Source of the DNA: a phage
Strand: one strand, 5' to 3'
Length of the DNA stretch: 64,000 bases
Assembly (NCBI GenBank): GCA_012178725.1
Contig: GCA_012178725.1_3030.1
Of this stretch, positions 3,872 through 60,013 are shown piece after piece. Position numbers and translations under genes: made by a program. The first letter of the stretch is position 1; each line of letters opens with the position of its first letter. The notes below the pieces were generated by a model. That model saw only the letters and a list, made by a program, of their open reading frames with translations, was not told where the DNA came from and ran no database searches.

Positions 3872-3879
3872 GAGGTATT

Positions 3880-4995
3880 ATGGAAAAATTTATGGCAGAG
3901 TTTGGACAAGGATATGTCCAAACGCCATTTTTATCGGAAAGCAATTCAGTAAGATACAAAATAAGCATAGCGGGTTCTTGCCCGCTTTCTACAGCAGGAC
4001 CATACGTTAAATTTCAGGATAATCCTATCGGAAATCAAACATTTAGCGCAGGCCTTCATTTAAGAGTTTTTGACCCTTCCACCGGAGCATTAGTTGATAG
4101 TAAGTCATATGCTTTTTCGACTTCAAATGATACTACATCAGCTGCTTTTGTTAGTTTCATGAATTCTTTGACGAATAATCGAATTGTCGCTATATTAACT
4201 AGTGGAAAGGTTAATTTTCCTCCTGAAGTAGTATCTTGGCTAAGAACCGCCGGAACGTCTGCTTTTCCATCTGATTCTGTATTGTCAAGATTCGACGTAT
4301 CATATGCTGCTTTTTATACTTCTTCTAAAAGAGCTATTGCATTAGAGCATGTTAAATTAAGTAATAGAAAAAGCACAGATGATTATCAAACTATTTTAGA
4401 TGTTGTATTTGACAGTTTAGAAGACGTCGGAGCTACCGGGTTTCCAAGAAGAACGTATGAAAGTGTTGAGCAATTCATGTCGGCGGTTGGTGGAACTAAT
4501 AACGAAATTGCGCGTCTACCAACTTCAGCTGCTATAAGTAAATTATCTGATTATAATTTAATTCCTGGTGATGTTCTTTATCTTAAAGCACAGTTATATG
4601 CTGATGCTGATTTACTTGCTCTTGGAACTACAAATATATCTATCCGTTTTTATAATGCATCAAATGGATATATTTCTTCAACACAAGCTGAATTTACTGG
4701 GCAAGCTGGGTCATGGGAATTAAAGGAAGATTATGTAGTTGTTCCAGAAAACGCAGTAGGATTTACGATATATGCACAAAGAACTGCACAGGCTGGTCAA
4801 GGCGGCATGAGAAATTTAAGCTTTTCTGAAGTATCAAGAAATGGCGGAATTTCAAAACCTGCAGAATTTGGCGTCAATGGTATTCGAGTTAATTATGTCT
4901 GTGAATCCGCTTCACCTCCGGATATAATGGTACTTCCTACACAAGCATCGTCTAAAACTGGTAAAGTGTTTGGACAAGAATTTAGAGAAGTTTAA
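3880..4995 (+). CDS. 35: Long tail fiber hinge connector gp35
   Basis: 371-aa ORF 8 nt after gene 34; sequence matches T4 gp35 as recalled. Confidence 0.93.
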   Translation: MEKFMAEFGQGYVQTPFLSESNSVRYKISIAGSCPLSTAGPYVKFQDNPIGNQTFSAGLHLRVFDPSTGALVDSKSYAFSTSNDTTSAAFVSFMNSLTNNRIVAILTSGKVNFPPEVVSWLRTAGTSAFPSDSVLSRFDVSYAAFYTSSKRAIALEHVKLSNRKSTDDYQTILDVVFDSLEDVGATGFPRRTYESVEQFMSAVGGTNNEIARLPTSAAISKLSDYNLIPGDVLYLKAQLYADADLLALGTTNISIRFYNASNGYISSTQAEFTGQAGSWELKEDYVVVPENAVGFTIYAQRTAQAGQGGMRNLSFSEVSRNGGISKPAEFGVNGIRVNYVCESASPPDIMVLPTQASSKTGKVFGQEFREV

Positions 4996-5743: not shown

Positions 5744-8700
5744 ATGGCTACTTTAAAACAAATACAATTTAAAAGAAGCAAAACTGCAGGAGCACGTCCT
5801 GCCGCTTCAGTATTAGCCGAAGGTGAATTGGCTATAAACTTAAAAGACCGTGTACTTTTTACTAAAGATGACCAAGGAAATATTATTGATCTGGGTTTTG
5901 CTAAAGGCGGTAGTATTGACGGGAATGTTATTCATACAGGCAATTATAACCAAACTGGCGATTATACTTTAAATGGCGTCTTCACTCAGACTGGTAATTT
6001 TAATTTAACTGGTATTGCTCGAGTAACTCGCGATATTATTGCCGCTGGGCAGATTATGACTGAAGGCGGAGAACTTATTACAAAAAGTTCAGGTACAGCG
6101 CATGTTCGTTTTTTCGATGGCAATAGTCGCGAACGTGGAATCATTTATGCCCCGGCTAATGACGGTTTAACTACACAAGTACTTAATATCAGGGTTCAAG
6201 ACTATGCCGCTGGCAGCGAAAGCACTTATGCATTTTCAGGCAGTGGCCTATTTACTTCACCTGAAGTATCAGCATGGAAATCTATTTCGTCTCCACAAAT
6301 TCTGACCAACAAAGTCATTACTAATAATAAATCTACGGGTGATTATGACATCTATTCGATGGCAGACAATGTTCCATTGTCTGAAAGCACTACTGCTATT
6401 AATCATCTTCGTGTCATGCGTAATGCCGTTGGTTCTGGTATTTTCCATGAAGTTAAAGATAATGATGGAATAACTTGGTATGCAGGTGATGGACTTGACA
6501 CCTATCTTTGGTCATTTACTTGGAGCGGCGGAATTAAATCAAGTCACTCAATTTCTATTGGTTTAACATCTGGTAGTAAAGATTATTCAATATTAGGACC
6601 ATCTAGTATTGCTTTAGGAGATAATGATACTGGATTTAAATGGCATCAAGATGGATATTATTTTAGCGTTAATAATGGAACAAAAACGTTTTTATTTAGT
6701 CCTAGCGAAACAACTAGCCTAAGAAAATTTGTAGCTGGATATTCTACTAACGGAACCGATTTAACTACTCCTCCAACTGAAAATTATGCTCTTGCTACTG
6801 TCGTGACATATCACGATAATAACGCGTTTGGAGATGGTCAGACTCTTTTAGGATATTATCAAGGCGGTAACTATCATCACTATTTCCGCGGCAAGGGTAC
6901 TACAAACATTAATACTCACGGCGGTTTGTTAGTTACTCCTGGTAATATTGACGTTATTGGTGGTTCTGTTAATATTGATGGTAGAAATAATGCTTCTACA
7001 CTGTTGTTTAGAGGTAACACAACTGGTAGTAGTTCAGTTGATAATATGACAATTTCCGTTTGGGGCAATACGTTTACTAATCCTAGTGAAGGCACCCGTA
7101 AAAATGTCATGGAAATTTCTGACGCAACTAGCTGGATGAGTTATATTCAAAGACTTACTACTGGTGAAGTAGAAATGAACGTTAACGGTTCATTTGAATC
7201 ATCCGGTGTTACTGCTGGAAATAGAGGAGTTCACACAACAGGCGAAATTTCATCTGGAGCAGTGAATGCTCTTCGCATTTGGAATGCAGATTATGGAGCT
7301 ATTTTTAGACGTTCAGAAGGTAGTCTTCATATTATTCCAACTGCTTATGGTGAAGGCAAAAATGGTGATATCGGTCCACTTCGTCCATTTAGTATTGCTT
7401 TGGATACTGGTAAGGTTGTTATTCCAGATTTAGAATCAAGTTATAACACGTTTGCTGCAAATGGCTACATTAAATTTGCTGGTCATGGCGCTGGCGCTGG
7501 TGGTTATGATATTCAGTATTCACAAGCTGCTCCTATTTTCCAAGAAATTGATGACGACGCTGTAAGCAAATATTATCCTATTGTTAAACAGAAGTTTCTA
7601 AACGGTAAATCCGTTTGGTCTTTAGGTACTGAAATTAATTCGGGTACATTCGTTATTCATCATCTGAAAGAAGATGGATCGCAGGGCCATACATCTCGTT
7701 TTAATCAAGACGGTACTGTTAACTTCCCGGATAACGTTCAGGTCGGCGGCGGTGAAGCTACTATTGCTCGTAATGGTAACATCTGGTCTGATATCTGGAA
7801 AACGTTTACTTCAGCAGGCGACGTAACTAATATTCGCGATGCTATTGCTACTCGCGTTGCCAAAGAAGGCGACACGATGACCGGCACTCTTTGGATTAAT
7901 AAAGATGCCGCTGGAATAGTTCTTAATCCTCCTTTGACCAGTGATTCATCATTTATTCGTTCTGATACGGCCGGGGCCAATAATTGGTATATTGGTAAAG
8001 GCGGTGCCGACAATGGTCTAGGTTTTTACAGTTACATTACACAAGGCGGTGTATACATAACAAATACCGGTGAAATATCGCTTTCTCCTCAAGGACAAGG
8101 AACATTTAATTTTAATAGAGACCGCCTTTATATAAATGCTAGTCAATGGGTTGCACATAAATCTGGCGCTTGGGGCGACCAATGGGGCTTAGAAGCTCCT
8201 GTATTTGTGGATTTTGGTAGTGTCAGTAATGACTGCTATTATCCTATTATTAAAGGAAAATCTGGTATTACTAACGAAGGATATTTTTCCGGCGTAGATT
8301 TTGGTATGCGACGCATTACTAATACATGGGCACAAGGTATTATTCGTGTAGGTAATCAGGAAAACGGTTCAGACCCACAAGCCATCTATGAATTCCACAG
8401 TAACGGTACTTTTTATGCCCCTAGCCTACTTAAGAGCAACAGAGTATCAGCAGGTGGCGGTGACCCTGTATGGGCCGGGCCATGTATTGTTCTTGGCGAT
8501 AATGACACAGGTCTAGTTTGGGAAGCAGATGGTATTTTCAACGCATATGCAAACGGCCAAGGTGTATTCAGTTTTAGAGCTGGTCTCGCACAAACATTCG
8601 GTAACGTAGCGTTAAACGTTAACGCAGGTATGTATGTTCGTGATAACATTGATGTTAACGACGTTTATATCCGTTCTGATATTCGTTGTAAGTCAGAAAT

Positions 8701-8995
8701 TAAGCTTATTAAGAACGCTCAAGAGAAATCTAAACTCTTAGGCGGCTATACTTATCTGCTTAAAAACTCTGTTACAGACGAAGTTAAACCATCTGCAGGT
8801 TTAATTGCTCAGGAAGTTCAAGAAGTATTGCCTGAACTTGTTTCTGAAGATAAAGAGACCGGACTGCTTCGTTTGAACTATAACGGTATTATCGGTTTAA
8901 ATACTGCTACAATCAACGAGCATACAGATGAAATCAAGGAATTGAAATCTGAAATTGCCGAATTGAAAGCATTAATTAAATCATTGATAAAATAA
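5744..8995 (+). CDS. 37: Long tail fiber distal subunit gp37 with C-terminal intramolecular chaperone domain
   Basis: 1083-aa ORF in the gene 37 position; last ~106 aa carry an SDxRxK autocleavage motif and a coiled-coil tail. Confidence 0.93.
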   Translation: MATLKQIQFKRSKTAGARPAASVLAEGELAINLKDRVLFTKDDQGNIIDLGFAKGGSIDGNVIHTGNYNQTGDYTLNGVFTQTGNFNLTGIARVTRDIIAAGQIMTEGGELITKSSGTAHVRFFDGNSRERGIIYAPANDGLTTQVLNIRVQDYAAGSESTYAFSGSGLFTSPEVSAWKSISSPQILTNKVITNNKSTGDYDIYSMADNVPLSESTTAINHLRVMRNAVGSGIFHEVKDNDGITWYAGDGLDTYLWSFTWSGGIKSSHSISIGLTSGSKDYSILGPSSIALGDNDTGFKWHQDGYYFSVNNGTKTFLFSPSETTSLRKFVAGYSTNGTDLTTPPTENYALATVVTYHDNNAFGDGQTLLGYYQGGNYHHYFRGKGTTNINTHGGLLVTPGNIDVIGGSVNIDGRNNASTLLFRGNTTGSSSVDNMTISVWGNTFTNPSEGTRKNVMEISDATSWMSYIQRLTTGEVEMNVNGSFESSGVTAGNRGVHTTGEISSGAVNALRIWNADYGAIFRRSEGSLHIIPTAYGEGKNGDIGPLRPFSIALDTGKVVIPDLESSYNTFAANGYIKFAGHGAGAGGYDIQYSQAAPIFQEIDDDAVSKYYPIVKQKFLNGKSVWSLGTEINSGTFVIHHLKEDGSQGHTSRFNQDGTVNFPDNVQVGGGEATIARNGNIWSDIWKTFTSAGDVTNIRDAIATRVAKEGDTMTGTLWINKDAAGIVLNPPLTSDSSFIRSDTAGANNWYIGKGGADNGLGFYSYITQGGVYITNTGEISLSPQGQGTFNFNRDRLYINASQWVAHKSGAWGDQWGLEAPVFVDFGSVSNDCYYPIIKGKSGITNEGYFSGVDFGMRRITNTWAQGIIRVGNQENGSDPQAIYEFHSNGTFYAPSLLKSNRVSAGGGDPVWAGPCIVLGDNDTGLVWEADGIFNAYANGQGVFSFRAGLAQTFGNVALNVNAGMYVRDNIDVNDVYIRSDIRCKSEIKLIKNAQEKSKLLGGYTYLLKNSVTDEVKPSAGLIAQEVQEVLPELVSEDKETGLLRLNYNGIIGLNTATINEHTDEIKELKSEIAELKALIKSLIK

Positions 8996-9000
8996 TAAAA

Positions 9001-9014
9001 GGGCCTTCGGGCCC
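9001..9014 (+). promoter_or_regulatory. GC hairpin with UUCG loop between genes 37 and 38
   Basis: gggcc-ttcg-ggccc directly followed by the GGAGG ribosome-binding site and ATG of gene 38. Confidence 0.5.
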
Positions 9015-9025
9015 TGGAGGTTTTT

Positions 9026-9805
9026 ATGGCAGTAGTAGGAATTCCTGGTTGGATTGGGACTTCAGCCGTCGCTGAAACAGGCCAGCGCTGGATGTCAGCG
9101 GCCTCTAGAGAATTGCGTCTAGGGAACCCATCTTGGATGTCACAATTCGCTGGACGCTCAAGAGAAATTATTCACACGCTTGGAGCAGACCATAACTTCA
9201 ATGGTCAATGGTTTCGTGACCGTTGTTTTGAAGCCGGCGGTGCTCCTATAGTGTTTAATATCACAGGCAACTTAGTATCATATTCTAAAGACGTTCCTTT
9301 ATTCTTCATGTATGGTGATACTCCTAACGAATATGTTACTTTGAATATTCATGGTGGTGTTCATATGTGGGGCCGAGGTGGTAATGGTAGCGTAAATGGA
9401 AGCCCAGGCACTAATGGTGGCGACGTAATCCAAAATGATATTGGTGGACGACTTCGTATTTGGAACTATGGCGTTATTGCATCAGGCGGCGGCGGTGGTG
9501 GTGCAGTGTCATTACAGAATAGCTGGGCACCAAATGCTACAGCAGGTGGCGGTGGTGGTAGACCGTTTGGCATCGGCGGAGGCGGCGTTAATTGGCCGGG
9601 TGGTAATGCTAGTTATGACGCGCCTGGCGGTGCCGGTTACACTTCCCAATTCGGCGGAGGCAATGGCGGTGATGCTGGAGGTCGGGGTGGAGATGGATGG
9701 GGTAATCACTTATCTAGATCCGGCGGTGGTGCTCCAGGTAGAGCGGTATTCGGTTCTTCACCATCATGGGGTGCAACAGGCACGATCTACGGTTCCTGGA
9801 TTTAA
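9026..9805 (+). CDS. 38: Tail fiber adhesin gp38, T2-type with glycine-rich motifs
   Basis: 259-aa ORF with several poly-Gly runs ([20 protein letters not shown]); T4 gp38 is a shorter chaperone without these. Confidence 0.85.
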
Positions 9806-9824
9806 ATGGTAATACCTCTCAGCA

Positions 9825-9832
9825 TATAAATA
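9825..9832 (+). promoter_or_regulatory. T4-type late promoter (TATAAATA) for holin gene t
   Basis: Exact TATAAATA about 19 nt upstream of the t ATG, followed by AAAGGAGGG. Confidence 0.7.
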
Positions 9833-9850
9833 TCCTTAAAAGGAGGGTCT

Positions 9851-10507
9851 ATGGCAGCACCTAGAATATCATTTTCGCCCTCTGATATTCTATTTGGTGT
9901 TCTAGATCGCTTGTTCAAAGATAACGCTACCGGGAAAGTTCTTGCTTCCCGGGTAGCTGTCGTAATTCTTTTATTTATGATGGCGATTGTTTGGTATAGG
10001 GGAGATAGTTTCTTTGAGTACTATAAGCAATCAAAGTATGAAACATACAGTGAAATTATTGAAAAGGAAAGAAATGCACGCTTTGAATCTGTCGCCCTGG
10101 AACAACTCCAGATAGTTCACATATCATCTGAGGCAGACTTTAGTGCGGTGTATTCTTTCCGCCCTAAAAACTTAAACTATTTTGTTGATATTATAGCATA
10201 CGAAGGAAGATTACCTTCAACAATAACTGAAAAATCACTTGGAGGATATCCTGTTGATAAAACTATGGATGAATATGCAGTTCATTTAAATGGACGTCAT
10301 TATTATTCTGACTCAAAATTTGCTTTTTTACCAACTAAAAAGCCTACTCCCGAAATAAACTACATGTACAGTTGTCCATATTTTAATTTGGATAATATCT
10401 ATGCTGGAACAATAACCATGTACTGGTATAGAAATGATCATATAAGTAATGACCGCCTTGAATCAATATGTGCTCAGGCGGCCAGAATATTAGGAAGGGC
10501 TAAATAA
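9851..10507 (+). CDS. t: Holin
   Basis: 218-aa ORF matching T4 holin T in length and sequence as recalled; hydrophobic segment near N-terminus. Confidence 0.93.
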   Translation: MAAPRISFSPSDILFGVLDRLFKDNATGKVLASRVAVVILLFMMAIVWYRGDSFFEYYKQSKYETYSEIIEKERNARFESVALEQLQIVHISSEADFSAVYSFRPKNLNYFVDIIAYEGRLPSTITEKSLGGYPVDKTMDEYAVHLNGRHYYSDSKFAFLPTKKPTPEINYMYSCPYFNLDNIYAGTITMYWYRNDHISNDRLESICAQAARILGRAK

Positions 10508-13362: not shown

Positions 13363-13512
13363 TTACTGCATGACTGTGATAACTGTCATGATAACACGTT
13401 GAATTCCGAACGCAAGAAGACCTCCTGCTATGGCTGGAACAACGCCTAAACCCGCCAGTAAAATGCTACCAGATACTAATGCAGCGCTTGTAATACCAAT
13501 GAATGGACTCAT
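13363..13512 (-). CDS. Small hydrophobic ORF (49 aa) in the motA.1 position
   Basis: Hand-called MSPFIGITSAALVSGSILLAGLGVVPAIAGG...; ATGA overlap with the gene 52 stop. Confidence 0.4.
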   Translation of the reverse strand: MSPFIGITSAALVSGSILLAGLGVVPAIAGGLLAFGIQRVIMTVITVMQ

Positions 13513-14837
13513 TTGATTTCCTCTAAATCTTTGGTGTATTCGGTAACTACATCAGTAGTTTTCCAATATTCGTTTTCTTCTTTTTTAGCTTTAGCTTCTT
13601 CAGCAAGTTTCTTTGCTTCATCGGAAGTCATATGAAAAATATTCATTCCAACTAGTTTATCAACATAAGAAGAATACATATCGATTTTCGAAAGTTCTTC
13701 GGTCAGTTCTTTACGAGTTTTACCCTGTACAACAATTTCACCTGAAATTACTTTCTTAATGAAATGTGCCTTGGCAAAGGCTAAACGAAAAGCTGACTCA
13801 GTTTCTTTGATTTTGTTATCAATTCGTTTTTGGACATAAGTTTTACGAACTTCAACAAAGTCTTTAATTAAATCAACTACGTTATCGTAAACTTGTAGTT
13901 TTCCTTTCTCATTAATAACCGTAATATTCTGAGAACGACGCTCAATCAACCCGAAGTCTTTCATAATTTTTGCGTGGCGTTCTTCTTCATTATCGCTCAA
14001 AGAATATTCTTTACGGAATTTAACTTTGAATCCAAAACCGTGCTCACCGCAAGCATCATCCCATGTAATGAAGCCTTTATCTTCAAGTGGGTCTAAAATT
14101 TTACTCACATAAGTTTCACGATCATACTTATACGGAATCTCAGTGATATGCATTTGAGTTCGTGAAGTAAACTTATATGTTCCACGAATTTCATATTGCC
14201 CATCAATTTCAACGACTTCACCACGAAATTCTGGGAATTCTACCTTCGGTTTAGTTACTTTCTTTCCTTGAAGAGCTTGCAGTACAGCTTTCTTAACAGA
14301 AGAAACACTATGAGGAAGAATGTAAGTTGCATAACCAGTTGCAATACCGGAAACACCATTAAGAAGAACAGTAGGAATAATAGGCAAATAGAAAGCAGGC
14401 GGAATGTGTTCTTTATCTTGATGTACCGGAGCATATTCAGTATCTTTATATACGTTATAGAAATTTTTACTTACACGAGCAAAAATATAACGACTTGCTG
14501 CTGCTTTTTGGACGGTACGAGAACCAAAGTTTCCTTGACCATCTAACAGAGGAAAGTTATTATTCCAAGTGTTAGCCATCAAAGCACCTGCGTCTTGCGC
14601 AGAGTTTTCACCATGATGATATCCAAGGTCCGCTACACCGCCTGCGATAGAAGCGAGTTTGTGAAACTTATCTTTATTTCCTCGTGCCAAATCAAGAGCT
14701 CGAGCAATAACAAATCGTTGAACTGGCTTAAATCCATCAATCATATTTGGAATGGCACGATTTTCAACCGTGTACATAGCATAAGCCAATGCTTCATTAT
14801 CAATGATACTTTTTAAATCGCGATTATTCAGTTGCAT
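13509..14837 (-). CDS. 52: DNA topoisomerase II medium subunit gp52
   Basis: 442-aa ORF matching T4 gp52 (GyrA-like) in length and sequence as recalled. Confidence 0.95.
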   Translation of the reverse strand: MQLNNRDLKSIIDNEALAYAMYTVENRAIPNMIDGFKPVQRFVIARALDLARGNKDKFHKLASIAGGVADLGYHHGENSAQDAGALMANTWNNNFPLLDGQGNFGSRTVQKAAASRYIFARVSKNFYNVYKDTEYAPVHQDKEHIPPAFYLPIIPTVLLNGVSGIATGYATYILPHSVSSVKKAVLQALQGKKVTKPKVEFPEFRGEVVEIDGQYEIRGTYKFTSRTQMHITEIPYKYDRETYVSKILDPLEDKGFITWDDACGEHGFGFKVKFRKEYSLSDNEEERHAKIMKDFGLIERRSQNITVINEKGKLQVYDNVVDLIKDFVEVRKTYVQKRIDNKIKETESAFRLAFAKAHFIKKVISGEIVVQGKTRKELTEELSKIDMYSSYVDKLVGMNIFHMTSDEAKKLAEEAKAKKEENEYWKTTDVVTEYTKDLEEIK

Positions 14838-15221: not shown

Positions 15222-15679
15222 TAATATGCCTGCAAAACAAATTTAAAGTTATCAGCCAACATACGGTTCATTTCTTCAAGTGTTTGATACTCAGAATGAT
15301 GATTACGAGTAAACGCCAAAGCTAACTGACCTTTACCAAATCCTGTCGTCAGAGGTTTCATCTTAGAAGCAGGCAGATAAAATACTGTGTATGGAACATT
15401 GTTATTTGCAATAGTACGTGCAAGCTGAGACCGACGTTGACGAATATGACTTAGAACTGCACTGAATCCTTGCTTAGAACGCTGATTACCTACATAAAAT
15501 CGTGCAGACACACATGGATTACTAAATGGACGACCATCTAATTTACTTACTAAAAAGTAAAATCCAGGTTTAGATAAAATGTCTTTATGCGGAGTTCCCA
15601 AAAACCATTCACCGCCCTTGATTGTGCCAATAACAGTTGCGCCTGCATTATTCAGATCAGTAACAGTCATGTATTTCAT
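15221..15679 (-). CDS. ndd: Nucleoid disruption protein Ndd
   Basis: ORF-track frame trimmed to the [13 protein letters not shown] start (152 aa, GAGGAAA ribosome-binding site); matches T4 Ndd. Confidence 0.9.
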
Positions 15680-15739
15680 ATTAATTTCCTCTAAATTATT
15701 TTCTACTCCAAGGCCGCATGAATACACGCGGCCATTAAA

Positions 15740-15955
15740 TTAATCGTCGCAGTCGACGCTCAATTCCCAAAACTCTTCTACGGTATAAGTTTCAATATCA
15801 TTTTCAATACAGAAACGTTCATTACTATTGTTTGCTAAAGTAGCGTTAACTGTCATTTTCTCGCTGGTACTCTTAAGAGGTGAAATACGAATTAACTGAT
15901 CACCGTTATCTAAACAAAAAATTTCACCAACTTTTACATCTTTAAAACTTTTCAT
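15740..15955 (-). CDS. Hypothetical protein (71 aa), ndd.x region
   Basis: ORF in operon orientation. Confidence 0.55.
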   Translation of the reverse strand: MKSFKDVKVGEIFCLDNGDQLIRISPLKSTSEKMTVNATLANNSNERFCIENDIETYTVEEFWELSVDCDD

Positions 15956-15963
15956 AATTCACC

Positions 15964-16074
15964 TCAAGGAGTATAAAATCCGAATGCAGTTGTTGACCAT
16001 CCCATCCAGTATGGGAAATTTGCACCAATGTAAAACATAAGAATATAAAACCAACCGCTCAGCAAATTCATCAT
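15964..16074 (-). CDS. Hydrophobic micropeptide (36 aa)
   Basis: Hand-called MMNLLSGWFYILMFYIGANFPYWMGW...; ATGA overlap with upstream stop. Confidence 0.35.
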   Translation of the reverse strand: MMNLLSGWFYILMFYIGANFPYWMGWSTTAFGFYTP

Positions 16075-16268
16075 TTTACACCGTTCCAAATTGTTTCAAC
16101 CACGGATTTTAAGCCATTTTGATGAATGTCCATTCCAACTACCGCCATCAAATAGATTCCAACTACAACTGAACCTAAGGCAAAAATCAGCATGAAAATG
16201 AATAAAGCCGGAAAAATATTATCGAAAAACCATTCAATAAATGTAAAAGCACTGCGTTTACGCTTCAT
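16071..16268 (-). CDS. Small membrane protein (65 aa)
   Basis: ORF-track frame trimmed to MKRKRSAFTF start, which has a GAGGA ribosome-binding site; one predicted membrane helix. Confidence 0.5.
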   Translation of the reverse strand: MKRKRSAFTFIEWFFDNIFPALFIFMLIFALGSVVVGIYLMAVVGMDIHQNGLKSVVETIWNGVK

Positions 16269-16275
16269 ATTTTCC

Positions 16276-16741: not shown

Positions 16742-17299
16742 TTAAATGGAAAGATACCATCCATTGTAGTTGCTTTTTCTTACAACCTTACGAAGGTCTT
16801 CTCTATCACCGATGAACTTCGGAGTGTACTGGATGACACCTGGATGAATTTCTTTAGTGTTGAATATAATTATACAGTCCGCGACCTGGTGATTTAGAAT
16901 GGGCCCTAGATTTATTCCAGAACCATATGGATACTCTCCGCTGCATCCTGTTGTTACAGAAATCCAACGTGAGTCAGTTTGATGTGTCTTAACTTCTACA
17001 CGGAGCCCGCAATATTTTGGATGTGCTAAAACATCCCATGCATATGTGTACGGATCATTGACATCTTCTTGGCCTTTATTGACATATCCGCTTAGCCAAT
17101 CTGCTACAAAAAACTCTGCGTACACAGCGATACGGCATCTTTCGATAACTTCTGTCTTATCCTGATTTGGGTTTTGTTTTAAAGAGTATCTTGCAGTATC
17201 AGCAATTTTGACCTTCATTTCACCAGTCAAGTCACTGTTCGATAGGGTAAATGTCGGAATCTGAAATAGTCTCTGTAGCCCCGGATTCGTTTTCTGCAT
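16742..17299 (-). CDS. denB: Endonuclease IV DenB
   Basis: 185-aa ORF in the denB position next to rIIB; size as T4 DenB. Confidence 0.85.
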   Translation of the reverse strand: MQKTNPGLQRLFQIPTFTLSNSDLTGEMKVKIADTARYSLKQNPNQDKTEVIERCRIAVYAEFFVADWLSGYVNKGQEDVNDPYTYAWDVLAHPKYCGLRVEVKTHQTDSRWISVTTGCSGEYPYGSGINLGPILNHQVADCIIIFNTKEIHPGVIQYTPKFIGDREDLRKVVRKSNYNGWYLSI

Positions 17300-17344
17300 T
17301 TAAACTTTCCTTTATGTCGGAATCACTGATATTCATATAATAAA

Positions 17345-17369
17345 TCATAAAACAAAAGGGCCGAAGCCC
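17345..17369 (-). terminator. Intrinsic terminator (GGGCUUCGGCCC plus U-run)
   Basis: On the - strand gggcttcggccc followed by TTTTGTTTTAT, between denB.1 and denB. Confidence 0.65.
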
Positions 17370-17374
17370 TTATT

Positions 17375-17569
17375 TTATTTGAATTGTGCAATTCTTTTCT
17401 CTAGACATTCAGCATAAGATTTCATTGAGATGAACTGTGAAAGCAGCAGTTCTTGCTCAACTGCACTAACCGTTAGAAACTTTGTGCTTTCTAAAAATTT
17501 GCTCAGTGCATTAATTTTGAGCATTAATTGATCGTATTCTTCTTTTACTCGTGCTTGATAACCTAACAT
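17375..17569 (-). CDS. Hypothetical protein (64 aa), denB.1 position
   Basis: ORF with AAGGAAA ribosome-binding site. Confidence 0.55.
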   Translation of the reverse strand: MLGYQARVKEEYDQLMLKINALSKFLESTKFLTVSAVEQELLLSQFISMKSYAECLEKRIAQFK

Positions 17570-17585
17570 AATTTTCCTTAGTTAA

Positions 17586-17597
17586 GGGCCGAAGCCC
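17586..17597 (-). promoter_or_regulatory. Intercistronic CUUCGG hairpin at the rIIB 3' end
   Basis: gggccgaagccc overlapping the rIIB stop; no U-run on the transcribed strand. Confidence 0.4.
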
Positions 17598-18536
17598 TTA
17601 TTTAAATTGTTCAGTAACGTCTTCAACTACTTCATATTGGCAGGTACGCATTTTAGCATCATTGTAATCAATCGGAATTGATACTACATCACGTGGATGT
17701 ACTTTAACTTTTACAACTCGGCTGGTTGAACTGCCAAAGTGACGAATATAAGATTTAGAACACACATGCAGACCACGAGAACAAGTTTGTGTATCATCGT
17801 CATTCACACGAGTACGCGGCATTTTAACTACTTTACCAGGACTGTTATCAAAGGTATTTGAGTGACAGTCAAAGTAATTGCTGCGAACTACTTTCCAAGC
17901 ATAGAAGTAACCATCTTCTGTAATTTCAATATCGTTTGCTACCAAGAAATCAAAAAGTCGAGATACCGCTTTCTGGCTTGGGTTTTCCAGCAGATTTTCC
18001 AAGAACGGAAAATAAAATTCAAAGTTTTCGCCTTTTTCCATCGAATCAAGAATACGATCAACCAAACCAGACCGCAATTCAATATTTTGATAGAATAAGC
18101 TTCCACCTTCAATTCGAACATCACCGGAAATATATTTTTCAACAGCGCGACGAACATTAATTTTTTGTGCCGCTTCTTCCAACTTATCCGCTACAAGCAG
18201 ATTAAGAATTTCCTGGAAGTTTGAATGAGTATTAGGAGTTGCGTTATAAGTTACACCGTCAACAGTAATTGAAATGAATTTTTTAGATGCATTCCAAATA
18301 ATGTCAGATTTAGCAACTGGAGCAATAACTGCATCGCTATTAACTTTAACTGTAATATCACCACTAATAGTAACTTTAGGGCGTTTAGCTTCTTCAGCAT
18401 TTTTCAAAACACGACGGATTGTGTCAACCGATACACCTTGCCAATCAGCCAATTCCTGTTGAGTGTAATTACCACTTGAATACAGTTTAACAATTTCAGC
18501 TTGTTCGTTTTTGGTCAGGCATTTAATATTGTACAT
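17598..18536 (-). CDS. rIIB: rIIB protein
   Basis: 312-aa ORF, length and synteny as T4 rIIB. Confidence 0.95.
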   Translation of the reverse strand: MYNIKCLTKNEQAEIVKLYSSGNYTQQELADWQGVSVDTIRRVLKNAEEAKRPKVTISGDITVKVNSDAVIAPVAKSDIIWNASKKFISITVDGVTYNATPNTHSNFQEILNLLVADKLEEAAQKINVRRAVEKYISGDVRIEGGSLFYQNIELRSGLVDRILDSMEKGENFEFYFPFLENLLENPSQKAVSRLFDFLVANDIEITEDGYFYAWKVVRSNYFDCHSNTFDNSPGKVVKMPRTRVNDDDTQTCSRGLHVCSKSYIRHFGSSTSRVVKVKVHPRDVVSIPIDYNDAKMRTCQYEVVEDVTEQFK

Positions 18537-18547
18537 AATTTTCCTTA

Positions 18548-20725
18548 TTAGGCCGCAAGGGCCTTCATAGTTTTAGCGATTTGGGAAACTTCATCATCAC
18601 TTAAAGAGTTGCGATAACCGATGAAGTCGGAAACAATACGGAATTTCTTGGTAAACTCAGCAACCATTTTATCACTGTTTTTTGAAGCATTATTTGATAA
18701 TACATCAAAAAGATTAGTTACTGTCCAGATGTCATGACCGATGGTATCTTTTCCACCATTAAAATATACACCGCGCAATGAACTAACTATATTAGCGAGT
18801 CGTGTATATTCTTCAGAAACTTCATCTGTACTGAAGTACTTCATCATAAAATCTAGTTCAGGATACTTGATAATTTTATCAATATATCGTTGAGCTGAAC
18901 TTGAATAACCTACGTACTTATCATAATCTACATCATCAAAAGCATCTACATATAAATCACGCAAAGCTTCAAAAATACATTGGCACTGACCGAGTTCTTT
19001 TACCTTTTTCTGTAAAAGCGGACGAATAACATAAAATTCATTAATGCCAATAAGATTAGCCATACGAATCAAAATATTCATAGATGGATGACAAAGAGAT
19101 GTAGTACCATCCATAGAGAAAATATCAGAACGATGCATATACGCTACATAACCAGTAATTTCATCTGCTTCTGATGTGAGCGTAAATAGTTCCTCTTTTT
19201 CCCATCGCCCATCTTTAATTTCAAATTTAAATGCTGTAGCAGCTTTAGGACGAGGAGCTTTACTTTTAACTACCTTTGGAATATAGCTTTTAACTAAAGC
19301 TTCAATTTCTGACAAATAATGAATGTTAACTTCATCACTTTCAAACATCGCCATAATATCAGGAAGTAAATCAATCTGCGATTCTACTTCCGGATTAATA
19401 AACAGAAGACGCTCATTGTGATGAATATTCAAAGTGTTATTAAATTCACTATCATCTAACGCGTGTGCTAATCCACGGACAATATTAACACGATTTTTAA
19501 TATTATCAATAACGATATTAATTTTTGTTGCATTAATACCAAACAGACGATAACTTGATGCAACGGCTGAAGTTTCATGACTTTGCTTAATGCGCTTCAG
19601 TCGAGGGTCAAGATTTACTTCATACACAACTCCTGCATTACATAACTTACTATCAGGTTCAAACATGCTTTGCATCTTCTTATATGACAGATTTTTAGTC
19701 GTAAATTTGACTGAATTACTAATCATATAATCTCGAGCAGAATATCCCATCTTCATCAATTCACGATATGTGTGACGAGGAGATGTAGATTCTTTAAATC
19801 GTTTTACATCTTCATTAAATGCTTTCTCACTGAGTTCTTTAACTCGTTCAATAATATTTTTACGAGTGCGATCATCCAGTGAAAGAGCCTCGCGAGATGG
19901 AGCAATATCAAGTGAACCCATTGGAAACTTAATGTAATTCACTTCATTGCGAATGCTTAGCCAGTTACGGTCTCTAATAACACCATCGATAGGATAAACA
20001 ATACCGCCATAGATAGCATACAATCCGCCGCGATCAGGCCAGTATCTTTCTGGATTTACACCGTAATAGTCATCAAAATCTGGAAAATAATCAATTTCGC
20101 GGTCAAGACCATTAATGATAGCCAAATCTTTGAATGGTCGCATGATATAAGAAACTTCATAAGCAAAGTTTCTAAAGTCTTTTTCTTCAACTGGAACTAC
20201 AATTTCAATACCAGTTTTATCATCTGGACCCATTTCTTTTACGAATGTAGGTTTAATCTGTGGACCATCACCATCCATATAAGCTACATAACCACGAATT
20301 TCACCTTTATGATACGAAGTAATACTAAATGTATCAGTATAACTAAACGGAGATTTAGAACCTAAACCAAATCCGCCAATGAAATCGTTAGATTCAGCCT
20401 TAGATGAACTGAAGTATGAATTATACAACCCAGGAGAATTATCATCACCTTGAATATCAAAATCACTCATACCCGGACCAAAATCTCGACAAACAAATCG
20501 TGGGTCTAAACGTCCAGGAATTTGTATGATAAATTTTTCAGGATTTCCATTAAGTGCATGAGCATCAATCATGTTAGTAATCAATTCACGGACTACTGCG
20601 CGAATCTTGTTTGTATACAAATCAGATGATAGAATTTTAAATACTTTAGGATTTGCTGCGATGCTAAATGCTTTTGATTTAGAACCATTACCAAGAATTG
20701 TTTCTTTTTCAGTGGTGATAATCAT
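18548..20725 (-). CDS. rIIA: rIIA protein
   Basis: 725-aa ORF, length, sequence and synteny as T4 rIIA. Confidence 0.95.
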
Positions 20726-20964: not shown

Positions 20965-20994
20965 ATTATACCACATCCTTGTGGTAAAGTAAAC
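20965..20994 (-). promoter_or_regulatory. Early promoter (GTTTAC-N18-TATAAT) upstream of rIIA.1/rIIA
   Basis: Reverse strand reads GTTTACtttaccacaaggatgtggTATAAT; the -35 overlaps the gene 39 stop. Confidence 0.65.
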
Positions 20995-22811
20995 TACTGG
21001 CTCATCCATTCTTTACGAAGGTCAGCATTATCTCCCATGAGCATTTCAAAAAGCTCTTTCCAGTTCTCAGGAAGTTTAACAACATCATATACTGGATTTT
21101 GAATCATCTCACGATATTCAGATTTTTCCAAAGAGCCAAGTCCTTTAATATAACGGATGCTATGTTTAGGTAGAGCATCTTTGGCACTCTCATATTCAGC
21201 GACTGTATAAAACCATTCTTGTTTTTTACCGACCTGAGCGATGATTACAGGAGTTTTGACAAAGCGAATTCGTCCTTGCTCAAACAGTTCTGGCCAATTA
21301 CTAAAAAATCCAAGAAGAGAAGGATAAATGCTTCCTAGACCATCATGGTCAGCATCAGTCATAATAGCAATATTATGATAATTCAAGTTTTCAGCTTTTT
21401 CACCAAGAACTAGACCAGTGATTGCGCAAATATCAAACAGTTCTTTGTTTTTAAGCATATCTGCATAAGACATACCCCAGCTATTAAGAACTTTACCACG
21501 CAATGGATAACCACCGTGAAGTTCTTTATCACGAACATCAATAAGATATCCGATAGCAGAATCACCCTCAGTCAAGAAAAGAGTAGTGTCAGCATCTTTA
21601 CCGCAAAGATTCGCTTTGATATGTTTATGAACCTTAGCTTTAGAAGCCTTTTTAGCTGCTTTAGTTTCTGCTGCTTTTTCTGCCGCCAATTTACGAGCCA
21701 AAGCAGCTTCAATAATCGGCATTAGAATTGCTTCATTATTTAGAATAGCACGTGAAATCTTTTTAGCATCAAGTTGAATATGACTACGGATTTCACCAAA
21801 TGGAGAAGTCAAACGCTCTTTAGTTTGAGAATCAAATCGCATGTTTTTCATATCACGAACAAACATAACGATAGTCAAACATTCTTTGACACGCGCTTTG
21901 GTTACATCAATTTTGAACTTACGTTTGATTTGTGGAATAAGGTCTTCACAAATATCATCCATAACACAGTCAATGTGATGGCCACCATTCTTAGTATGAA
22001 TGTTATTCACATAAGTTAATTGACGAAAACCATCCGGTGAACGACCAACTGCAATAGAACAATTTTCTTGTTCTTGAACGATAGCATGCTCATCATATTG
22101 GCGTGCATATTTCTTAAAATTACCCTGAACCTTTTTACCATTAAAGGTAAATTGAATATCAGGATAAACAACAGCAAGTGTCTGGAGACGATCTAGTGTA
22201 ATGTCAAGATAAACTTGGGACAGCTCATTAGTTTCAAATGACATAAAATCAGGAATGAAAGTAACACGAGTTCCTTTCCATTTTCCTGGAATAGTTTCCC
22301 ATGATTTATTTTCCATGCCATTTGAACAACGAACTACAATATTATTTTGACCATCGCCAGTTTCACCAACAAACATCACAGAAAAAATGTTAGTTAAACT
22401 AGAACCAACACCGTTCATACCGCCGGTGACGCGTTCTTTATCATCACCGAAGTTACCACCTGCTTTTGGAATAGTCCATGCAGCAACAGGACCAGGAATT
22501 TCTTCACCGGTAGGTGTTTTAACCATCGCTTGTGGAATACCGCGACCGTTATCTTCAACTGTTACTTGATTGTTTTTAATAGTAACGTTAATTTTATTTG
22601 CGAATTTAAACTTAGTACGAATACCTTCATCTACTGAGTTATCGATAATTTCATCAATAAGCTTAACAAGACCAGGTACATACTGAACACTTTCCCATTT
22701 ACCAAACAGAAAGCGCTCATGCATTTCATTAGCAGAAGAACCAATGTACATGCCGCTACGCTTTTTGATATGTTCAATATCGCTCAGAATTTTAATTTCA
22801 TTCTTAATCAT
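20994..22811 (-). CDS. 39: DNA topoisomerase II large subunit gp39, uninterrupted
   Basis: 605-aa ORF from MIKNEIKIL (the track's first M is a GTG one codon upstream) with GyrB ATPase and Toprim regions in one frame. Confidence 0.93.
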   Translation of the reverse strand: MIKNEIKILSDIEHIKKRSGMYIGSSANEMHERFLFGKWESVQYVPGLVKLIDEIIDNSVDEGIRTKFKFANKINVTIKNNQVTVEDNGRGIPQAMVKTPTGEEIPGPVAAWTIPKAGGNFGDDKERVTGGMNGVGSSLTNIFSVMFVGETGDGQNNIVVRCSNGMENKSWETIPGKWKGTRVTFIPDFMSFETNELSQVYLDITLDRLQTLAVVYPDIQFTFNGKKVQGNFKKYARQYDEHAIVQEQENCSIAVGRSPDGFRQLTYVNNIHTKNGGHHIDCVMDDICEDLIPQIKRKFKIDVTKARVKECLTIVMFVRDMKNMRFDSQTKERLTSPFGEIRSHIQLDAKKISRAILNNEAILMPIIEAALARKLAAEKAAETKAAKKASKAKVHKHIKANLCGKDADTTLFLTEGDSAIGYLIDVRDKELHGGYPLRGKVLNSWGMSYADMLKNKELFDICAITGLVLGEKAENLNYHNIAIMTDADHDGLGSIYPSLLGFFSNWPELFEQGRIRFVKTPVIIAQVGKKQEWFYTVAEYESAKDALPKHSIRYIKGLGSLEKSEYREMIQNPVYDVVKLPENWKELFEMLMGDNADLRKEWMSQ

Positions 22812-22838
22812 CACTTATCCTCGTTTGGTTTCGGGAAT

Positions 22839-22880: not shown

Positions 22881-23153
22881 TTATTTAAAACGGATAGTCG
22901 AATCCTTGAAGAATAGACCAGAACATACGGTTCCTTCTACTTTCTGCCCGGTAGGTCCAATAGCGCGAAATCCAGTATGTTGGAAATCATTTTCAGAGCA
23001 ACCGAACCAATTGTATCCAGTGATTTCAATATTAGTAAAACCGCTTGATGACAAAATTTTGGTTGCATTATCAGCATCAGTACATCCTGCTAAAGACACT
23101 GCTAATACTAATGCTGCGATAGAACGATTAATATATTTCATAATTTCACTCAA
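22881..23153 (-). CDS. Predicted lipoprotein (90 aa)
   Basis: Signal peptide with lipobox LAGC; alternative start at MKYINR. Confidence 0.6.
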   Translation of the reverse strand: MSEIMKYINRSIAALVLAVSLAGCTDADNATKILSSSGFTNIEITGYNWFGCSENDFQHTGFRAIGPTGQKVEGTVCSGLFFKDSTIRFK

Positions 23154-23517
23154 ATTTAATGGCTTGAAGAAGACTAATAATTCTCAAGCGACTTCTTTCA
23201 TCTTTAACTGTAAAAGAAAGAGGGTCACCAGATTTCATAGTGATGGTGCATCCAAAATCAAAATCTTCTGTAACTTCTTCGAAGAAGTCAAATTCTTCAT
23301 CATAAATTAGAACATTACTCTGAAAGCTGTGAAGAATTTTTCCATCATTTCCAGATGCTGTACTAATCATTGTAACATTATGACCTTTCATATCTTCAAC
23401 GATAAATTCGCTTGTAGATATTACTGCATTAATAGAACCGTTCCTATGAATAGCAGAAAATAGATATTTCTTTTCTTCACCTTCGCGAACACGATATTTC
23501 TTACCGATTTTAAACAT
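23146..23517 (-). CDS. Hypothetical protein (123 aa)
   Basis: ORF in operon orientation. Confidence 0.55.
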   Translation of the reverse strand: MFKIGKKYRVREGEEKKYLFSAIHRNGSINAVISTSEFIVEDMKGHNVTMISTASGNDGKILHSFQSNVLIYDEEFDFFEEVTEDFDFGCTITMKSGDPLSFTVKDERSRLRIISLLQAIKFE

Positions 23518-34032: not shown

Positions 34033-34551
34033 TTAATAGCCTCGGTCTTGACGAGCGAAATTTTCAGCATTTTTCAGATAATAAAGTTTAAATATTTCTT
34101 CAGCTGACATTCCAAGAGCAATAAATTTATTCATGAAAAAGTGAAATTGGTCAATCAGTTCAAATTTAATTTCAAGCTGATCTTCAGGAGATAAGTCTTG
34201 AATTTTCTTGGATTGCATTTCAGAATAACGTTTCTTCCAAGGTTTCCATACGGCAGAAGCTTCTTTTTCACCATTACTCATACCACCAAGAGAAGTATAT
34301 AGCTCGCGAGTTTCATCTGCGATATAATCGTCTTGGTTTCGCAACCAAGCAAGAACTTCTCCTGCAGTTTCAAGTGAATCAGGATGACGATTTGTTTCTG
34401 GTTTATCATTAGCCAAACGAATCTGTAAATGCCGCTGCATATCAAGCATAACCTGCAGTGGGTCAATATTGTGCATAATATTCTCAGCATATGCACGAGT
34501 TGCTTTATCAACACCTTCGATCAAATGAGCGCATTCATTAAAGTGAGCCAT
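34033..34551 (-). CDS. 56: dCTPase/dUTPase gp56
   Basis: ORF-track frame trimmed to MAHFNECAHLIEGVD (172 aa, AGGAAA ribosome-binding site); matches T4 gp56. Confidence 0.9.
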   Translation of the reverse strand: MAHFNECAHLIEGVDKATRAYAENIMHNIDPLQVMLDMQRHLQIRLANDKPETNRHPDSLETAGEVLAWLRNQDDYIADETRELYTSLGGMSNGEKEASAVWKPWKKRYSEMQSKKIQDLSPEDQLEIKFELIDQFHFFMNKFIALGMSAEEIFKLYYLKNAENFARQDRGY

Positions 34552-34622
34552 TATTTTTCCTTTCAATTCATGGGTTAGTAGATTAATTATACAATAAATA
34601 TATAAAGCAATAAGGAGGACAT

Positions 34623-39654: not shown

Positions 39655-40810
39655 TTAACTGTTCGAGGTCAGTTTCTAAATCAGCAGCTGATTTACTTTT
39701 ACTTTCTGGAGATTTAAATTTTTCAACCTTTGAGTTAATCAATTCATCAACTTCAGCTTCAACAATTTCATTACTATCAATAGCACCTAACTGATAAGCA
39801 CGTTTAATAGCATCTCGGAATGGTTGATGCTTAAATAAAGGACCCCAGAATGTAGTGCAGTTGGTATCTTTTGCACGCCAAGATTTTTCTTCGCGAATCA
39901 TCTCGCCGGTTTCTTCGTCAAGAAATTCACGAGCATACCAACCATTCTTAGGTTTTACTACAAATCCTAATTCTAGAGCCATATCTAACAATCCAGAATA
40001 AGGATCGATACCACCGTCAAATTTAACATCAATAAAGAATTTACTTTTTTCTTTAACGGTACGAGATTTTTCTACATTTAGAACAAATTGATACCCTTGA
40101 AGATCAGAACCATCTTTAATCTGACGCTTACCGATAATGAATACGGTATCAGCCGAATACATTACGCCTGTACCACCTGTCATCACGGTTTTACTAAACA
40201 TTTCAATTGTTTCAATTGTATGGTTAACCGCAACACATGGAATATTTTTAATGCTAAAGTAAGGAGTAACAATACGGAATAATGACTTCAGTGATTTAGC
40301 ACGAGTCATATCTGCCACAGATTTTTCATTCAAGGCATCTTCCGTTTCTTTCTTAGAAGCCATATTACCAATTGAGTCGATGAATACTATAACCTTTTCA
40401 CCACGCTCAATAGCTTCAAGCTGATTCACCATATCAATTTTCAGCTGTTCAACTGATTGAATTGGCGTATGAATTACACGTTCCGGGTCAACTCCCATGG
40501 ATCGCAAATAAGCTGGAGTAATACCAAATTCGCTATCATAGAATAGACAAACTGCGTCAGGATATTTGTTCAAATATGCCGCAACCATAGTCAAAGACAT
40601 ATTTGATTTAAAGTGTTTAGAAGGCCCTGCGAAAATAGTTAAACCAGACTGCATACCGCCATCAATCGCACCAGAAATAGCAATATTAAGCATTGGGATT
40701 TTTGTACGGATTACATCCTTTTCATTAAAGAATTTAGATGTAGTCAGTTCAGCAGTCATTTTAGAAGTGGAAGCTTTAATCAAACGGGATTTTAAATCTG
40801 CAATAGACAT
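39629..40810 (-). CDS. uvsX: Recombinase UvsX (RecA-like)
   Basis: 393-aa ORF with Walker A GPSKHFKS; matches T4 UvsX. Confidence 0.95.
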   Translation of the reverse strand: MSIADLKSRLIKASTSKMTAELTTSKFFNEKDVIRTKIPMLNIAISGAIDGGMQSGLTIFAGPSKHFKSNMSLTMVAAYLNKYPDAVCLFYDSEFGITPAYLRSMGVDPERVIHTPIQSVEQLKIDMVNQLEAIERGEKVIVFIDSIGNMASKKETEDALNEKSVADMTRAKSLKSLFRIVTPYFSIKNIPCVAVNHTIETIEMFSKTVMTGGTGVMYSADTVFIIGKRQIKDGSDLQGYQFVLNVEKSRTVKEKSKFFIDVKFDGGIDPYSGLLDMALELGFVVKPKNGWYAREFLDEETGEMIREEKSWRAKDTNCTTFWGPLFKHQPFRDAIKRAYQLGAIDSNEIVEAEVDELINSKVEKFKSPESKSKSAADLETDLEQLSDMEEFNE

Positions 40811-40887
40811 TCATTTTTTCCATAGGCATCATTATATTTTCCTCACTGGTTAAAGATAGAGTAATTATAACACAATAAATTTAGGCA

Positions 40888-55200: not shown

Positions 55201-55224
55201 TTAATATCCTCTTTGTTTTGGTTT

Positions 55225-59542: not shown

Positions 59543-60013
59543 TTAATCATGTTTCCACACCCCATCGGTATTTGACCAAAGTCGCTGATTATCTGATCCT
59601 CGCCACAGCTTTTTAGTCGGAAGATTTTTCTCATACTTCCCATCAATAATAACATCAACATATTTAAGCATTTCTAGTTGTTTAATATCTTCAAACTTAT
59701 ATCCTGTCCACAACCAAATGCTTTTATTGGGATAAAGATTTTTTACTGTTTGAACCACAGAGTGAATCACGTCTCTGTTATCAGGATAAAGAGGGTCACC
59801 TCCGGTTATAGTTAATCCTTCTATATAATCATTATTCAAACATTCAATCAATTGTTCTAGTGTTTCACCAGTAAATGGAATACCATTTCTAGCATTCCAT
59901 GTTGATTTATTATAACACCCTTCGCATTTATGCAAACAACCTGTAACGAAAAGAACGACCCTGCATCCAGGGCCATTCACAAAATCACAGGGATAAAATC
60001 TATCGTAATTCAT
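59543..60013 (-). CDS. nrdG: Anaerobic ribonucleotide reductase activase NrdG
   Basis: 156-aa ORF with radical-SAM cluster motif CLHKCEGC; length as T4 NrdG. Confidence 0.93.
   Translation of the reverse strand: MNYDRFYPCDFVNGPGCRVVLFVTGCLHKCEGCYNKSTWNARNGIPFTGETLEQLIECLNNDYIEGLTITGGDPLYPDNRDVIHSVVQTVKNLYPNKSIWLWTGYKFEDIKQLEMLKYVDVIIDGKYEKNLPTKKLWRGSDNQRLWSNTDGVWKHD

What the first reader, a model, noticed from the sequence alone, without database searches (positions are those of the whole stretch)
20994..22811. Gene 39 is intact: no gene 60 split, mobA insertion or 50-nt bypass element
One 605-aa ORF encodes both the GyrB-like ATPase and the Toprim/C-terminal region that T4 splits between gene 39 and gene 60. 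rIIA.1 directly follows it. I found no GGA...GGA take-off/landing pair or intervening endonuclease ORF.
Basis: partly seen in the sequence, partly recalled or inferred. Interest (0 to 1): 0.45.

Follow-up and report, generated by a model that had tools for sequence, protein, structure and literature searches.

The report
Uninterrupted phage topoisomerase gene 39
This T4-like phage encodes the large subunit of its DNA topoisomerase II as one ordinary 605-codon gene, which is the usual state in T-even phages; the split gene with a ribosome-bypass insert seen in T4 itself is the exception.

Summary
Window 20994-22811 (- strand) is one 605-codon ORF whose only in-frame stop is the terminal one. 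It is collinear, with no indels, with gp39 of T2, T6 and RB18 (99.7-99.8% aa identity). Residues 1-473 match T4 gp39 1-473 (98.3%). Residues 472-605 match T4 gp60 27-160 (95.5%).

T4's MobA/bypass cassette (T4 2794-3910) replaces just 64 nt of the window gene (21330-21393). The window holds no 50-nt gap, no take-off hairpin, no MobA ortholog and no cassette-derived C- or N-terminal extension. rIIA.1 follows after 54 nt, the same spacing as after T4 gene 60.

This is the majority arrangement. In the phage collection, 522 records carry the region contiguously and 41-43 carry the T4-type cassette. It is documented in the literature (PMC3014915; bioRxiv 10.1101/2022.08.31.505936). The near-identical T6 gp39 has solved structures (8ylu; PMC11461880).

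The only added inference is about homing. The cassette's target stretch is identical to T2's over about 100 nt, and T2 is reported to be nicked and invaded by MobA. This phage is therefore predicted to be a susceptible recipient.

Verdict: real, correctly interpreted, already known and ordinary.

The parts
20994..22811 (-). Gene 39: DNA topoisomerase II large (GyrB-like) subunit, 605 aa, uninterrupted
   Evidence: ORF. It has 98.3% and 95.5% aa identity to T4 gp39 and gp60, and 99.7-99.8% to T2, T6 and RB18 gp39 with no indels. PHROG 543, E=1.6e-295. PDB 8ylu_C (T6 gp39) matches residues 1-605.
22365..22673 (-). GHKL ATPase domain core (aa 47-149; N-box EIIDNSVDE, G1 DNGRGIP, G2 GGMNGVGSS)
   Evidence: Pfam HATPase_c, E=1.9e-9; motif positions.
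21660..22064 (-). Transducer (DNA_gyraseB) domain, aa 250-384
   Evidence: Pfam PF00204, E=1.5e-13.
21555..21575 (-). Toprim catalytic-Glu motif LTEGDSA (aa 413-419); encoded by gene 39 in T4
21339..21359 (-). Toprim acidic motif TDADHDG (aa 485-491); encoded by gene 60 in T4. Its last codon (GGT, 21339-21341) corresponds to T4's GGA take-off codon.
21330..21393 (-). Empty MobA-cassette site: the 64 nt that T4 replaces with its 1117-nt cassette (CTE, mobA, NTE/homR, 50-nt gap). The T4 gap would sit between window 21339 and 21338.
   Evidence: blastn breakpoints: window 21394 = T4 3911 and window 21329 = T4 2793. Only 76% identity over window 21340-21385 against the T4 homR. Identical to T2 across this stretch.
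21000..21257 (-). TOPRIM_C / C-terminal region (aa 519-604) that docks on gp52
   Evidence: Pfam PF16898, E=4.1e-7. The role of the C-terminus comes from PMC11461880.
20736..20939 (-). rIIA.1, immediately downstream (54-nt spacer)
   Evidence: Pfam T4_RIIA1, E=1.4e-33.
18548..20725 (-). rIIA
   Evidence: 725-aa ORF; synteny with T4 and RB18 annotation.
22881..23153 (-). Gene 39.1 homolog, immediately upstream of gene 39
   Evidence: ORF; RB18 annotation; PHROG 902.
13512..14837 (-). Gene 52: Topo II medium (GyrA-like) subunit, partner of gp39
   Evidence: tblastn with T4 gp52: 99.8% identity over all 442 aa.

Best explanation
The window comes from a Tequatrovirus (T-even phage). Region 20994-22811 (-) is its gene 39 in the uninterrupted, 'parental' form found in T2, T6, RB18 and most relatives. 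One mRNA reading frame is translated conventionally into a 605-aa GyrB-like subunit containing the GHKL ATPase, transducer and Toprim domains. This subunit pairs with gp52 (13512-14837, -) to form an A2B2 type IIA topoisomerase. No recoding, subunit reassembly or homing-endonuclease cassette is involved. Because the MobA cassette has never been fixed here, the gene still carries the T2-type target sequence. It is therefore predicted to be nicked and converted if the phage co-infects with a phage carrying a functional MobA. Shown here: the ORF, the collinearity, the absence of every cassette part, the database frequencies and the identity of the target stretch to T2. Inferred: enzymatic activity (from 99.8% identity to the structurally and enzymatically characterised T6 gp39) and MobA susceptibility (from sequence identity to T2 plus published T2 experiments).
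For: There is a single ORF with no internal stop. Gapless alignments cover T4 gp39 1-473 and gp60 27-160. Length is equal (1818 nt) with no indels against T2, T6 and RB18, at 96.4-97.9% nt and 99.7-99.8% aa identity. The breakpoints against T4 leave a 64-nt parental segment, the same size as the 64-nt deletion the preprint shows for its example phage HY01. T4's 2794-3910 cassette is 1117 nt, and 1106 nt in T4T-type records, within the published 1097-1106 nt. The homR equivalent is 76% identical, within the published 67-81%. No 50-nt gap, MobA, CTE or NTE is present. The T4 take-off stem-loop (GGAUAGCC-UUCG-GGCUAUC) appears in the T4 fold but not in the window fold. The contiguous form is in 522 records and the cassette in 41-43. 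PDB T6 gp39 (8ylu) matches residues 1-605. The gp52 partner is present. Literature: a single gene 39 in other T4-related phages (PMC3014915); parental versus MobA-inserted genomes and T2 nicking (bioRxiv 10.1101/2022.08.31.505936); T6 two-subunit Topo II structures and activity (PMC11461880).
Against: None against the anatomy. Activity and MobA sensitivity were not measured for this phage. The primary paper on MobA nicking of T2 (Bonocora et al. 2011, PNAS 108:16351) could not be opened here, so it is cited only through the preprint's account.
Confidence: 0.97

Rival explanations
1. The gene is secondarily intact. An ancestor carried the MobA/bypass cassette and lost it, either by precise excision ('hit and run') or by recombination with an uninterrupted gene 39 from a co-infecting phage.
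For: Hit-and-run refusion is described for an Aeromonas phage clade. T-even genomes are mosaic, and identity to T4 varies from 73% to 98% along the window.
Against: The described hit-and-run cases keep CTE- and NTE-derived sequence in the fused ORF. Here tblastn finds no CTE or NTE (best E=0.41-5.8, all outside gene 39). The protein has no indel against T2, T6 or RB18. The 64-nt parental segment is identical to T2 and is not the cassette's divergent homR (76% identity). Replacement by recombination with a parental allele would leave no trace, so it cannot be excluded, but it would give the same present-day gene.
Confidence: 0.03
2. The ORF hides a cryptic recoding event or is a pseudogene, for example through a frameshift compensated elsewhere or a non-T4-type bypass element.
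For: None.
Against: There are no in-frame stops. Alignment to three independent full-length homologs is gapless, with only 1-2 aa differences. Full-length matches go to the PHROG 543 profile and the T6 structure. The only GGA+stop strings in the gene are out of frame.
Confidence: 0.005

Closest known systems
gp39 of phages T2, T6 and RB18 (Topo II large subunit, 605 aa; T6 structures 8ylu, 8yo1 and others)
   Same: Same length, no indels, 99.7-99.8% aa identity, and the same neighbours 39.1 and rIIA.1.
   Different: Only 1-2 amino-acid substitutions (for example T173 against D, Q526 against H) and 2-4% synonymous nucleotide divergence.
T4 gp39 + gp60 with the MobA / 50-nt translational bypass cassette
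   Same: The topoisomerase coding sequence is orthologous on both sides of the cassette (98.3% and 95.5% aa). Flanking genes and the 54-nt spacer before rIIA.1 are the same.
   Different: The window lacks the whole cassette: the 43-aa C-terminal extension of gp39, mobA/60.1, the gp60 N-terminal extension, the divergent homR copy, the GGA-UAG take-off, the take-off stem-loop and the 50-nt gap. Instead it keeps the 64-nt parental segment 21330-21393.
Bacterial GyrB/ParE and the N-terminal half of eukaryotic Topo II
   Same: Same GHKL-transducer-Toprim domain order. phmmer E-values are 1e-36 to 1e-60 against solved GyrB, ParE and Topo II-alpha/beta chains.
   Different: Much shorter and only distantly similar in sequence. 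It pairs with the phage gp52. The enzyme is described as relaxing DNA and lacks the GyrA-box and beta-pinwheel C-terminal domain (PMC11461880).
   Same: A single full-length ORF with no endonuclease and no bypass.
   Different: Those genes retain CTE- and NTE-derived insert sequence. The window gene has none.

Membership tests
Type IIA topoisomerase B-type subunit (T-even gp39, 'Topo2L') | N-terminal GHKL ATPase domain with N-box, G1 and G2 motifs | tested here: met
   Pfam HATPase_c, 38.4 bits against a cut-off of 26.4. Motifs EIIDNSVDE, DNGRGIP and GGMNGVGSS are present.
Type IIA topoisomerase B-type subunit (T-even gp39, 'Topo2L') | Transducer (DNA_gyraseB) domain | tested here: met
   PF00204, 51.1 bits against a cut-off of 27.
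Type IIA topoisomerase B-type subunit (T-even gp39, 'Topo2L') | Toprim domain with catalytic Glu and DxDxD acidic cluster in one chain | tested here: met
   LTEGDSA at aa 413 and TDADHDG at aa 485. TOPRIM_C scores 30.7 bits against a cut-off of 29. Full-length match to T6 gp39 structure 8ylu_C.
Type IIA topoisomerase B-type subunit (T-even gp39, 'Topo2L') | Cognate A-type partner subunit (gp52) encoded by the same genome | tested here: met
   tblastn with T4 gp52: 99.8% identity over 442 of 442 aa at 13512-14837 (-).
Type IIA topoisomerase B-type subunit (T-even gp39, 'Topo2L') | ATP-dependent DNA relaxation and cleavage activity | not testable with these tools
   Inferred from 99.8% identity to T6 gp39, whose enzyme was assayed (PMC11461880).
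MobA / gene 60 translational-bypass cassette | Topo2L ORF split into ORF1 (gene 39 plus about 44-aa CTE) and ORF2 (NTE plus gene 60) | tested here: not met
   Single ORF. No CTE or NTE by tblastn.
MobA / gene 60 translational-bypass cassette | HNH endonuclease gene mobA (intact or pseudogene) between the two ORFs | tested here: not met
   No insert at 21330-21393. The only MobA-like hit in the window is a 29%-identical paralog at 51504-52358, 30 kb away.
MobA / gene 60 translational-bypass cassette | 50-nt coding gap with matched GGA take-off and landing codons, a stop after take-off, and a take-off stem-loop | tested here: not met
   The homologous codons read GGT CTA GGA with no insert. The pattern search gives 0 hits at up to 3 mismatches. 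No take-off hairpin appears in the fold, whereas it does in the T4 control.
MobA homing target (T2-type recipient allele) | Sequence identity to the T2 gene 39 stretch that MobA nicks | tested here: met
   The window is identical to T2 from gene nt 1396 to about nt 1494, which covers the homR-equivalent and the gap insertion point. The position of the nick site comes from the preprint's account of Bonocora et al. 2011.
MobA homing target (T2-type recipient allele) | Actual nicking by MobA and acquisition of the cassette in mixed infection | not testable with these tools
   Requires an in vitro nicking assay or a phage cross.

The most novel reading that the evidence does not exclude
The most novel reading still open is that this intact gene 39 is a revertant. 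In that reading a MobA/bypass cassette once sat here and was replaced seamlessly by recombination with a parental allele, which would make the locus an example of cassette gain-loss cycling within Tequatrovirus. Nothing in the sequence points to this, and it would leave no diagnostic trace.
Probability: 0.03. Interest if true: 0.2.

Novelty: already known. Interest (0 to 1): 0.06.

Why it matters
It matters little in itself. An uninterrupted gene 39 is the default in T-even phages and has been known since T2 and T6 were compared with T4. Its practical uses are modest. It confirms that this phage makes a two-subunit (gp39 + gp52) topoisomerase II like T6, whose structure is solved. It also marks the phage as a naive recipient allele for the MobA/bypass homing cassette, usable as a 'parental' comparator or recipient in homing crosses.

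Tried and rejected
1. I searched the whole window for the T4 50-nt gap at up to 3 mismatches and found nothing.
2. I ran tblastn with full-length MobA (from T4T), the gp39 C-terminal extension and the gp60 N-terminal extension. Only a distant Mob paralog at 51504-52358 turned up, with nothing in or near gene 39. This rejects both a cassette and a hit-and-run scar.
3. I folded the window RNA around the would-be take-off site with T4 as a positive control. The T4 take-off stem-loop was recovered in T4. The window shows only unrelated weak hairpins (z = -2.1, not distinctive).
4. I looked for GGA followed by a stop inside the gene. There are two occurrences, both out of frame and irrelevant.
5. 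I tried to open Bonocora et al. 2011 by DOI, but it is not held, and its reference was not in the held part of PMC5009743. I relied on the Manning & Atkins preprint's account instead.
6. I did not use the large protein-database, structure-prediction or metagenome tools. Annotated genomes and solved structures already settled the question.

Full report
**What is there**

The window is AT-rich (about 35% GC), with almost all genes from about 10 kb onward on the - strand. It aligns along most of its length with phage T4, from gene 34 through rIIB/rIIA to nrdC, at 73-98% identity. A 2.5-kb query around the finding hits 576 phage records, nearly all Tequatrovirus. The best are BCH953P2, RB18, SHBML-50-1 and Sf21, at about 97.8%. 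The source is therefore a T-even phage.

At the stated coordinates there is one - strand ORF, 20994..22814. It gives 606 aa from a GTG, or 605 aa from the ATG at 22811, which yields the MIKNEIK N-terminus seen in T4, T2 and T6. The ATG is preceded by GAGGATAAGTG. The only in-frame stop is the terminal one.

**Identity of the gene**

Pfam finds HATPase_c (aa 47-149), DNA_gyraseB (aa 250-384) and TOPRIM_C (aa 519-604), all above their curated cut-offs. PHROG 543, 'DNA topoisomerase II large subunit', matches residues 1-605 at E=1.6e-295. The best solved structure is T6 gp39 (8ylu_C and five further entries), matched over residues 1-605. Next comes the artificial T4 gp39-gp60 fusion (8yo3_C).

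The protein has exactly the same length as gp39 of T2 (AP018813), T6 (AP018814) and RB18 (MH553563). There are no indels and only 1-2 amino-acid differences, at 96.4-97.9% nucleotide identity. The partner subunit gp52 lies at 13512-14837 (-) and is 99.8% identical to T4 gp52.

**Comparison with T4**

- Window residues 1-473 align without gaps to T4 gp39 1-473 (98.3%).
- Window residues 472-605 align without gaps to T4 gp60 27-160 (95.5%).
- At the DNA level, window 23000-21394 aligns with T4 5517-3911 (96.8%).
- Window 21329-20700 aligns with T4 2793-2164 (98.6%).
- Between these, 64 nt of the window (21330-21393) stand opposite 1117 nt of T4 (2794-3910).
- Within that stretch, 46 nt (window 21340-21385) align to the end of T4 gene 60's first coding segment at only 76%.

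These numbers agree with Manning & Atkins (bioRxiv 10.1101/2022.08.31.505936). They describe a 1097-1106-nt MobA element that deletes 55-75 nt of the parental gene (64 nt in their HY01 example). The element supplies its own 'homR' copy at 67-81% DNA identity. T4T-type records carry a 1106-nt version of the T4 segment.

At the T4 take-off position, T4 reads GAT GGA | TAG...(50 nt)...GGA | TTA GGT. The window reads GAT GGT CTA GGA AGC, that is D-G-L-G-S, contiguous and in frame. In window coordinates the gap would lie between 21339 and 21338.

**Absence of every cassette part**

- The 50-nt gap has no match anywhere in the window at up to 3 mismatches.
- tblastn with intact MobA (from T4T) finds only a 29%-identical paralog 30 kb away.
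- The cassette-encoded C-terminal extension of gp39 and N-terminal extension of gp60 find nothing significant.
- Folding the T4 RNA recovers the known take-off stem-loop with its UUCG loop. The homologous window RNA has no such structure.

**How it works**

The gene is translated conventionally into one polypeptide. That polypeptide carries both halves of the Toprim domain: the catalytic-Glu motif LTEGDSA (aa 413-419) and the acidic cluster TDADHDG (aa 485-491). T4 distributes these between gp39 and gp60.

By near-identity to T6 gp39, it should dimerise and assemble with a gp52 dimer into an A2B2 ATP-dependent type IIA topoisomerase. Its C-terminus hooks onto the gp52 WHD domain (PMC11461880). 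Enzymatic activity is inferred, not shown.

**One further inference**

MobA from T4 relatives was reported to nick T2 gene 39 within the region equivalent to homR and to drive transfer of the cassette into T2. The 50-nt insert about 20 nt downstream then protects against re-nicking. This is the work of Bonocora et al. 2011 as summarised in the preprint; the primary paper could not be opened.

The window is identical to T2 from gene nt 1396 to about nt 1494, which spans this target and the gap insertion point. The phage is therefore predicted to be a susceptible recipient allele. This is untested.

**How common, and is it new?**

In the phage collection, 522 records contain the rIIA.1-39-39.1 region as one contiguous match. 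Only 43 records match the T4 cassette, 41 of them over at least 80% of its length. These are T4 isolates, RB55/RB59, HY01/HY03, vB_EcoM_112 and a few others, and the count includes GenBank/RefSeq duplicates.

A 2010 review already states that in the other T4-related phages the subunit is encoded by a single ORF without the mobA-60.1 insertion or the gap (PMC3014915). The 2024 structural paper contrasts three-subunit T4 with two-subunit T2 and T6 enzymes (PMC11461880). The finding is real and correctly read, but it describes the ancestral, majority and well-documented state.

**Rivals**

Secondary loss of a former cassette cannot be strictly excluded if it happened by recombination with a parental allele. 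The known 'hit and run' signature, retained CTE/NTE sequence, is absent. The 64-nt segment is also the parental type, not the homR type. Cryptic recoding or pseudogenisation is excluded.

**Seen in passing**

Relative to T4 the window also lacks segF, segA, mobB, mobC and the I-TevII intron of nrdD. There is no dam gene between genes 56 and 61. It carries a free-standing Mob-family HNH endonuclease between genes 46 and 46.1. It has a different glucosyltransferase in place of b-gt. Its gene 56 and gene 37/38 regions are strongly diverged. All appear to be known T-even polymorphisms.

Noticed in passing
window 51504-52358 (-): A free-standing 284-aa HNH homing endonuclease of the Mob family (PHROG 655, E=7.8e-45; 29% identity to MobA, 32% to MobB) sits between gene 46 and 46.1, at a site that is empty in T4. 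The same 872-nt insert occurs at 95-100% identity in 71 phage records (Aplg8, CM8, PhiZZ23, PP01 and others), annotated 'homing endonuclease'. Pfam finds no domain in it.
   Followed up: partly
window 34591-34612 (junction between gene 56 and gene 61): The T4 dam (DNA adenine methyltransferase) gene, about 900 nt at T4 16826-17724, is absent here. tblastn with T4 Dam finds nothing in the 64-kb window. Several phages (vB_Eco_NR1, CrRp10, CM8, ESh18) share this dam-less junction at 99% identity.
   Followed up: partly
window 34033-34591 (-): Gene 56 (dCTPase) is only 73% nt and 70% aa identical to T4 gene 56, far below the 94-98% of neighbouring genes. The adjacent segF homing endonuclease of T4 is missing (T4 15610-16270 has no counterpart). 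This pattern is consistent with a SegF-free allele of its target gene.
   Followed up: no
window 40799-41744, 55191-55216, 59993-60013, 61289-61292: Other T4 mobile elements are also absent: segA (together with b-gt), mobB, mobC and the I-TevII-containing group I intron of nrdD. In this region the phage is poor in homing endonucleases compared with T4.
   Followed up: no
window 40888-41736 (-): A 282-aa ORF with a TET-associated glycosyltransferase domain (Pfam TAGT, E=1.2e-9) occupies the place of T4 beta-glucosyltransferase (b-gt). It may be the T2/T6-type second glucosyltransferase.
   Followed up: no
window 5911-9824 (+): The distal tail-fibre region (gene 37 C-terminal part and gene 38) has no nucleotide match to T4 and only 35% aa identity to gp37. 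T4 gp38 has no hit. GC rises to 0.44 at 8001-10000. This suggests a non-T4-type (T2-like adhesin?) receptor-binding module.
   Followed up: no
window 23146-23517 (-): A 123-aa ORF lies between 39.1 and 39.2 and is absent from T4. It is present in RB18 (ORF005) and T6 (PHROG 622, unknown function), with weak similarity to a goF-annotated PHROG (E=1.3e-6).
   Followed up: no
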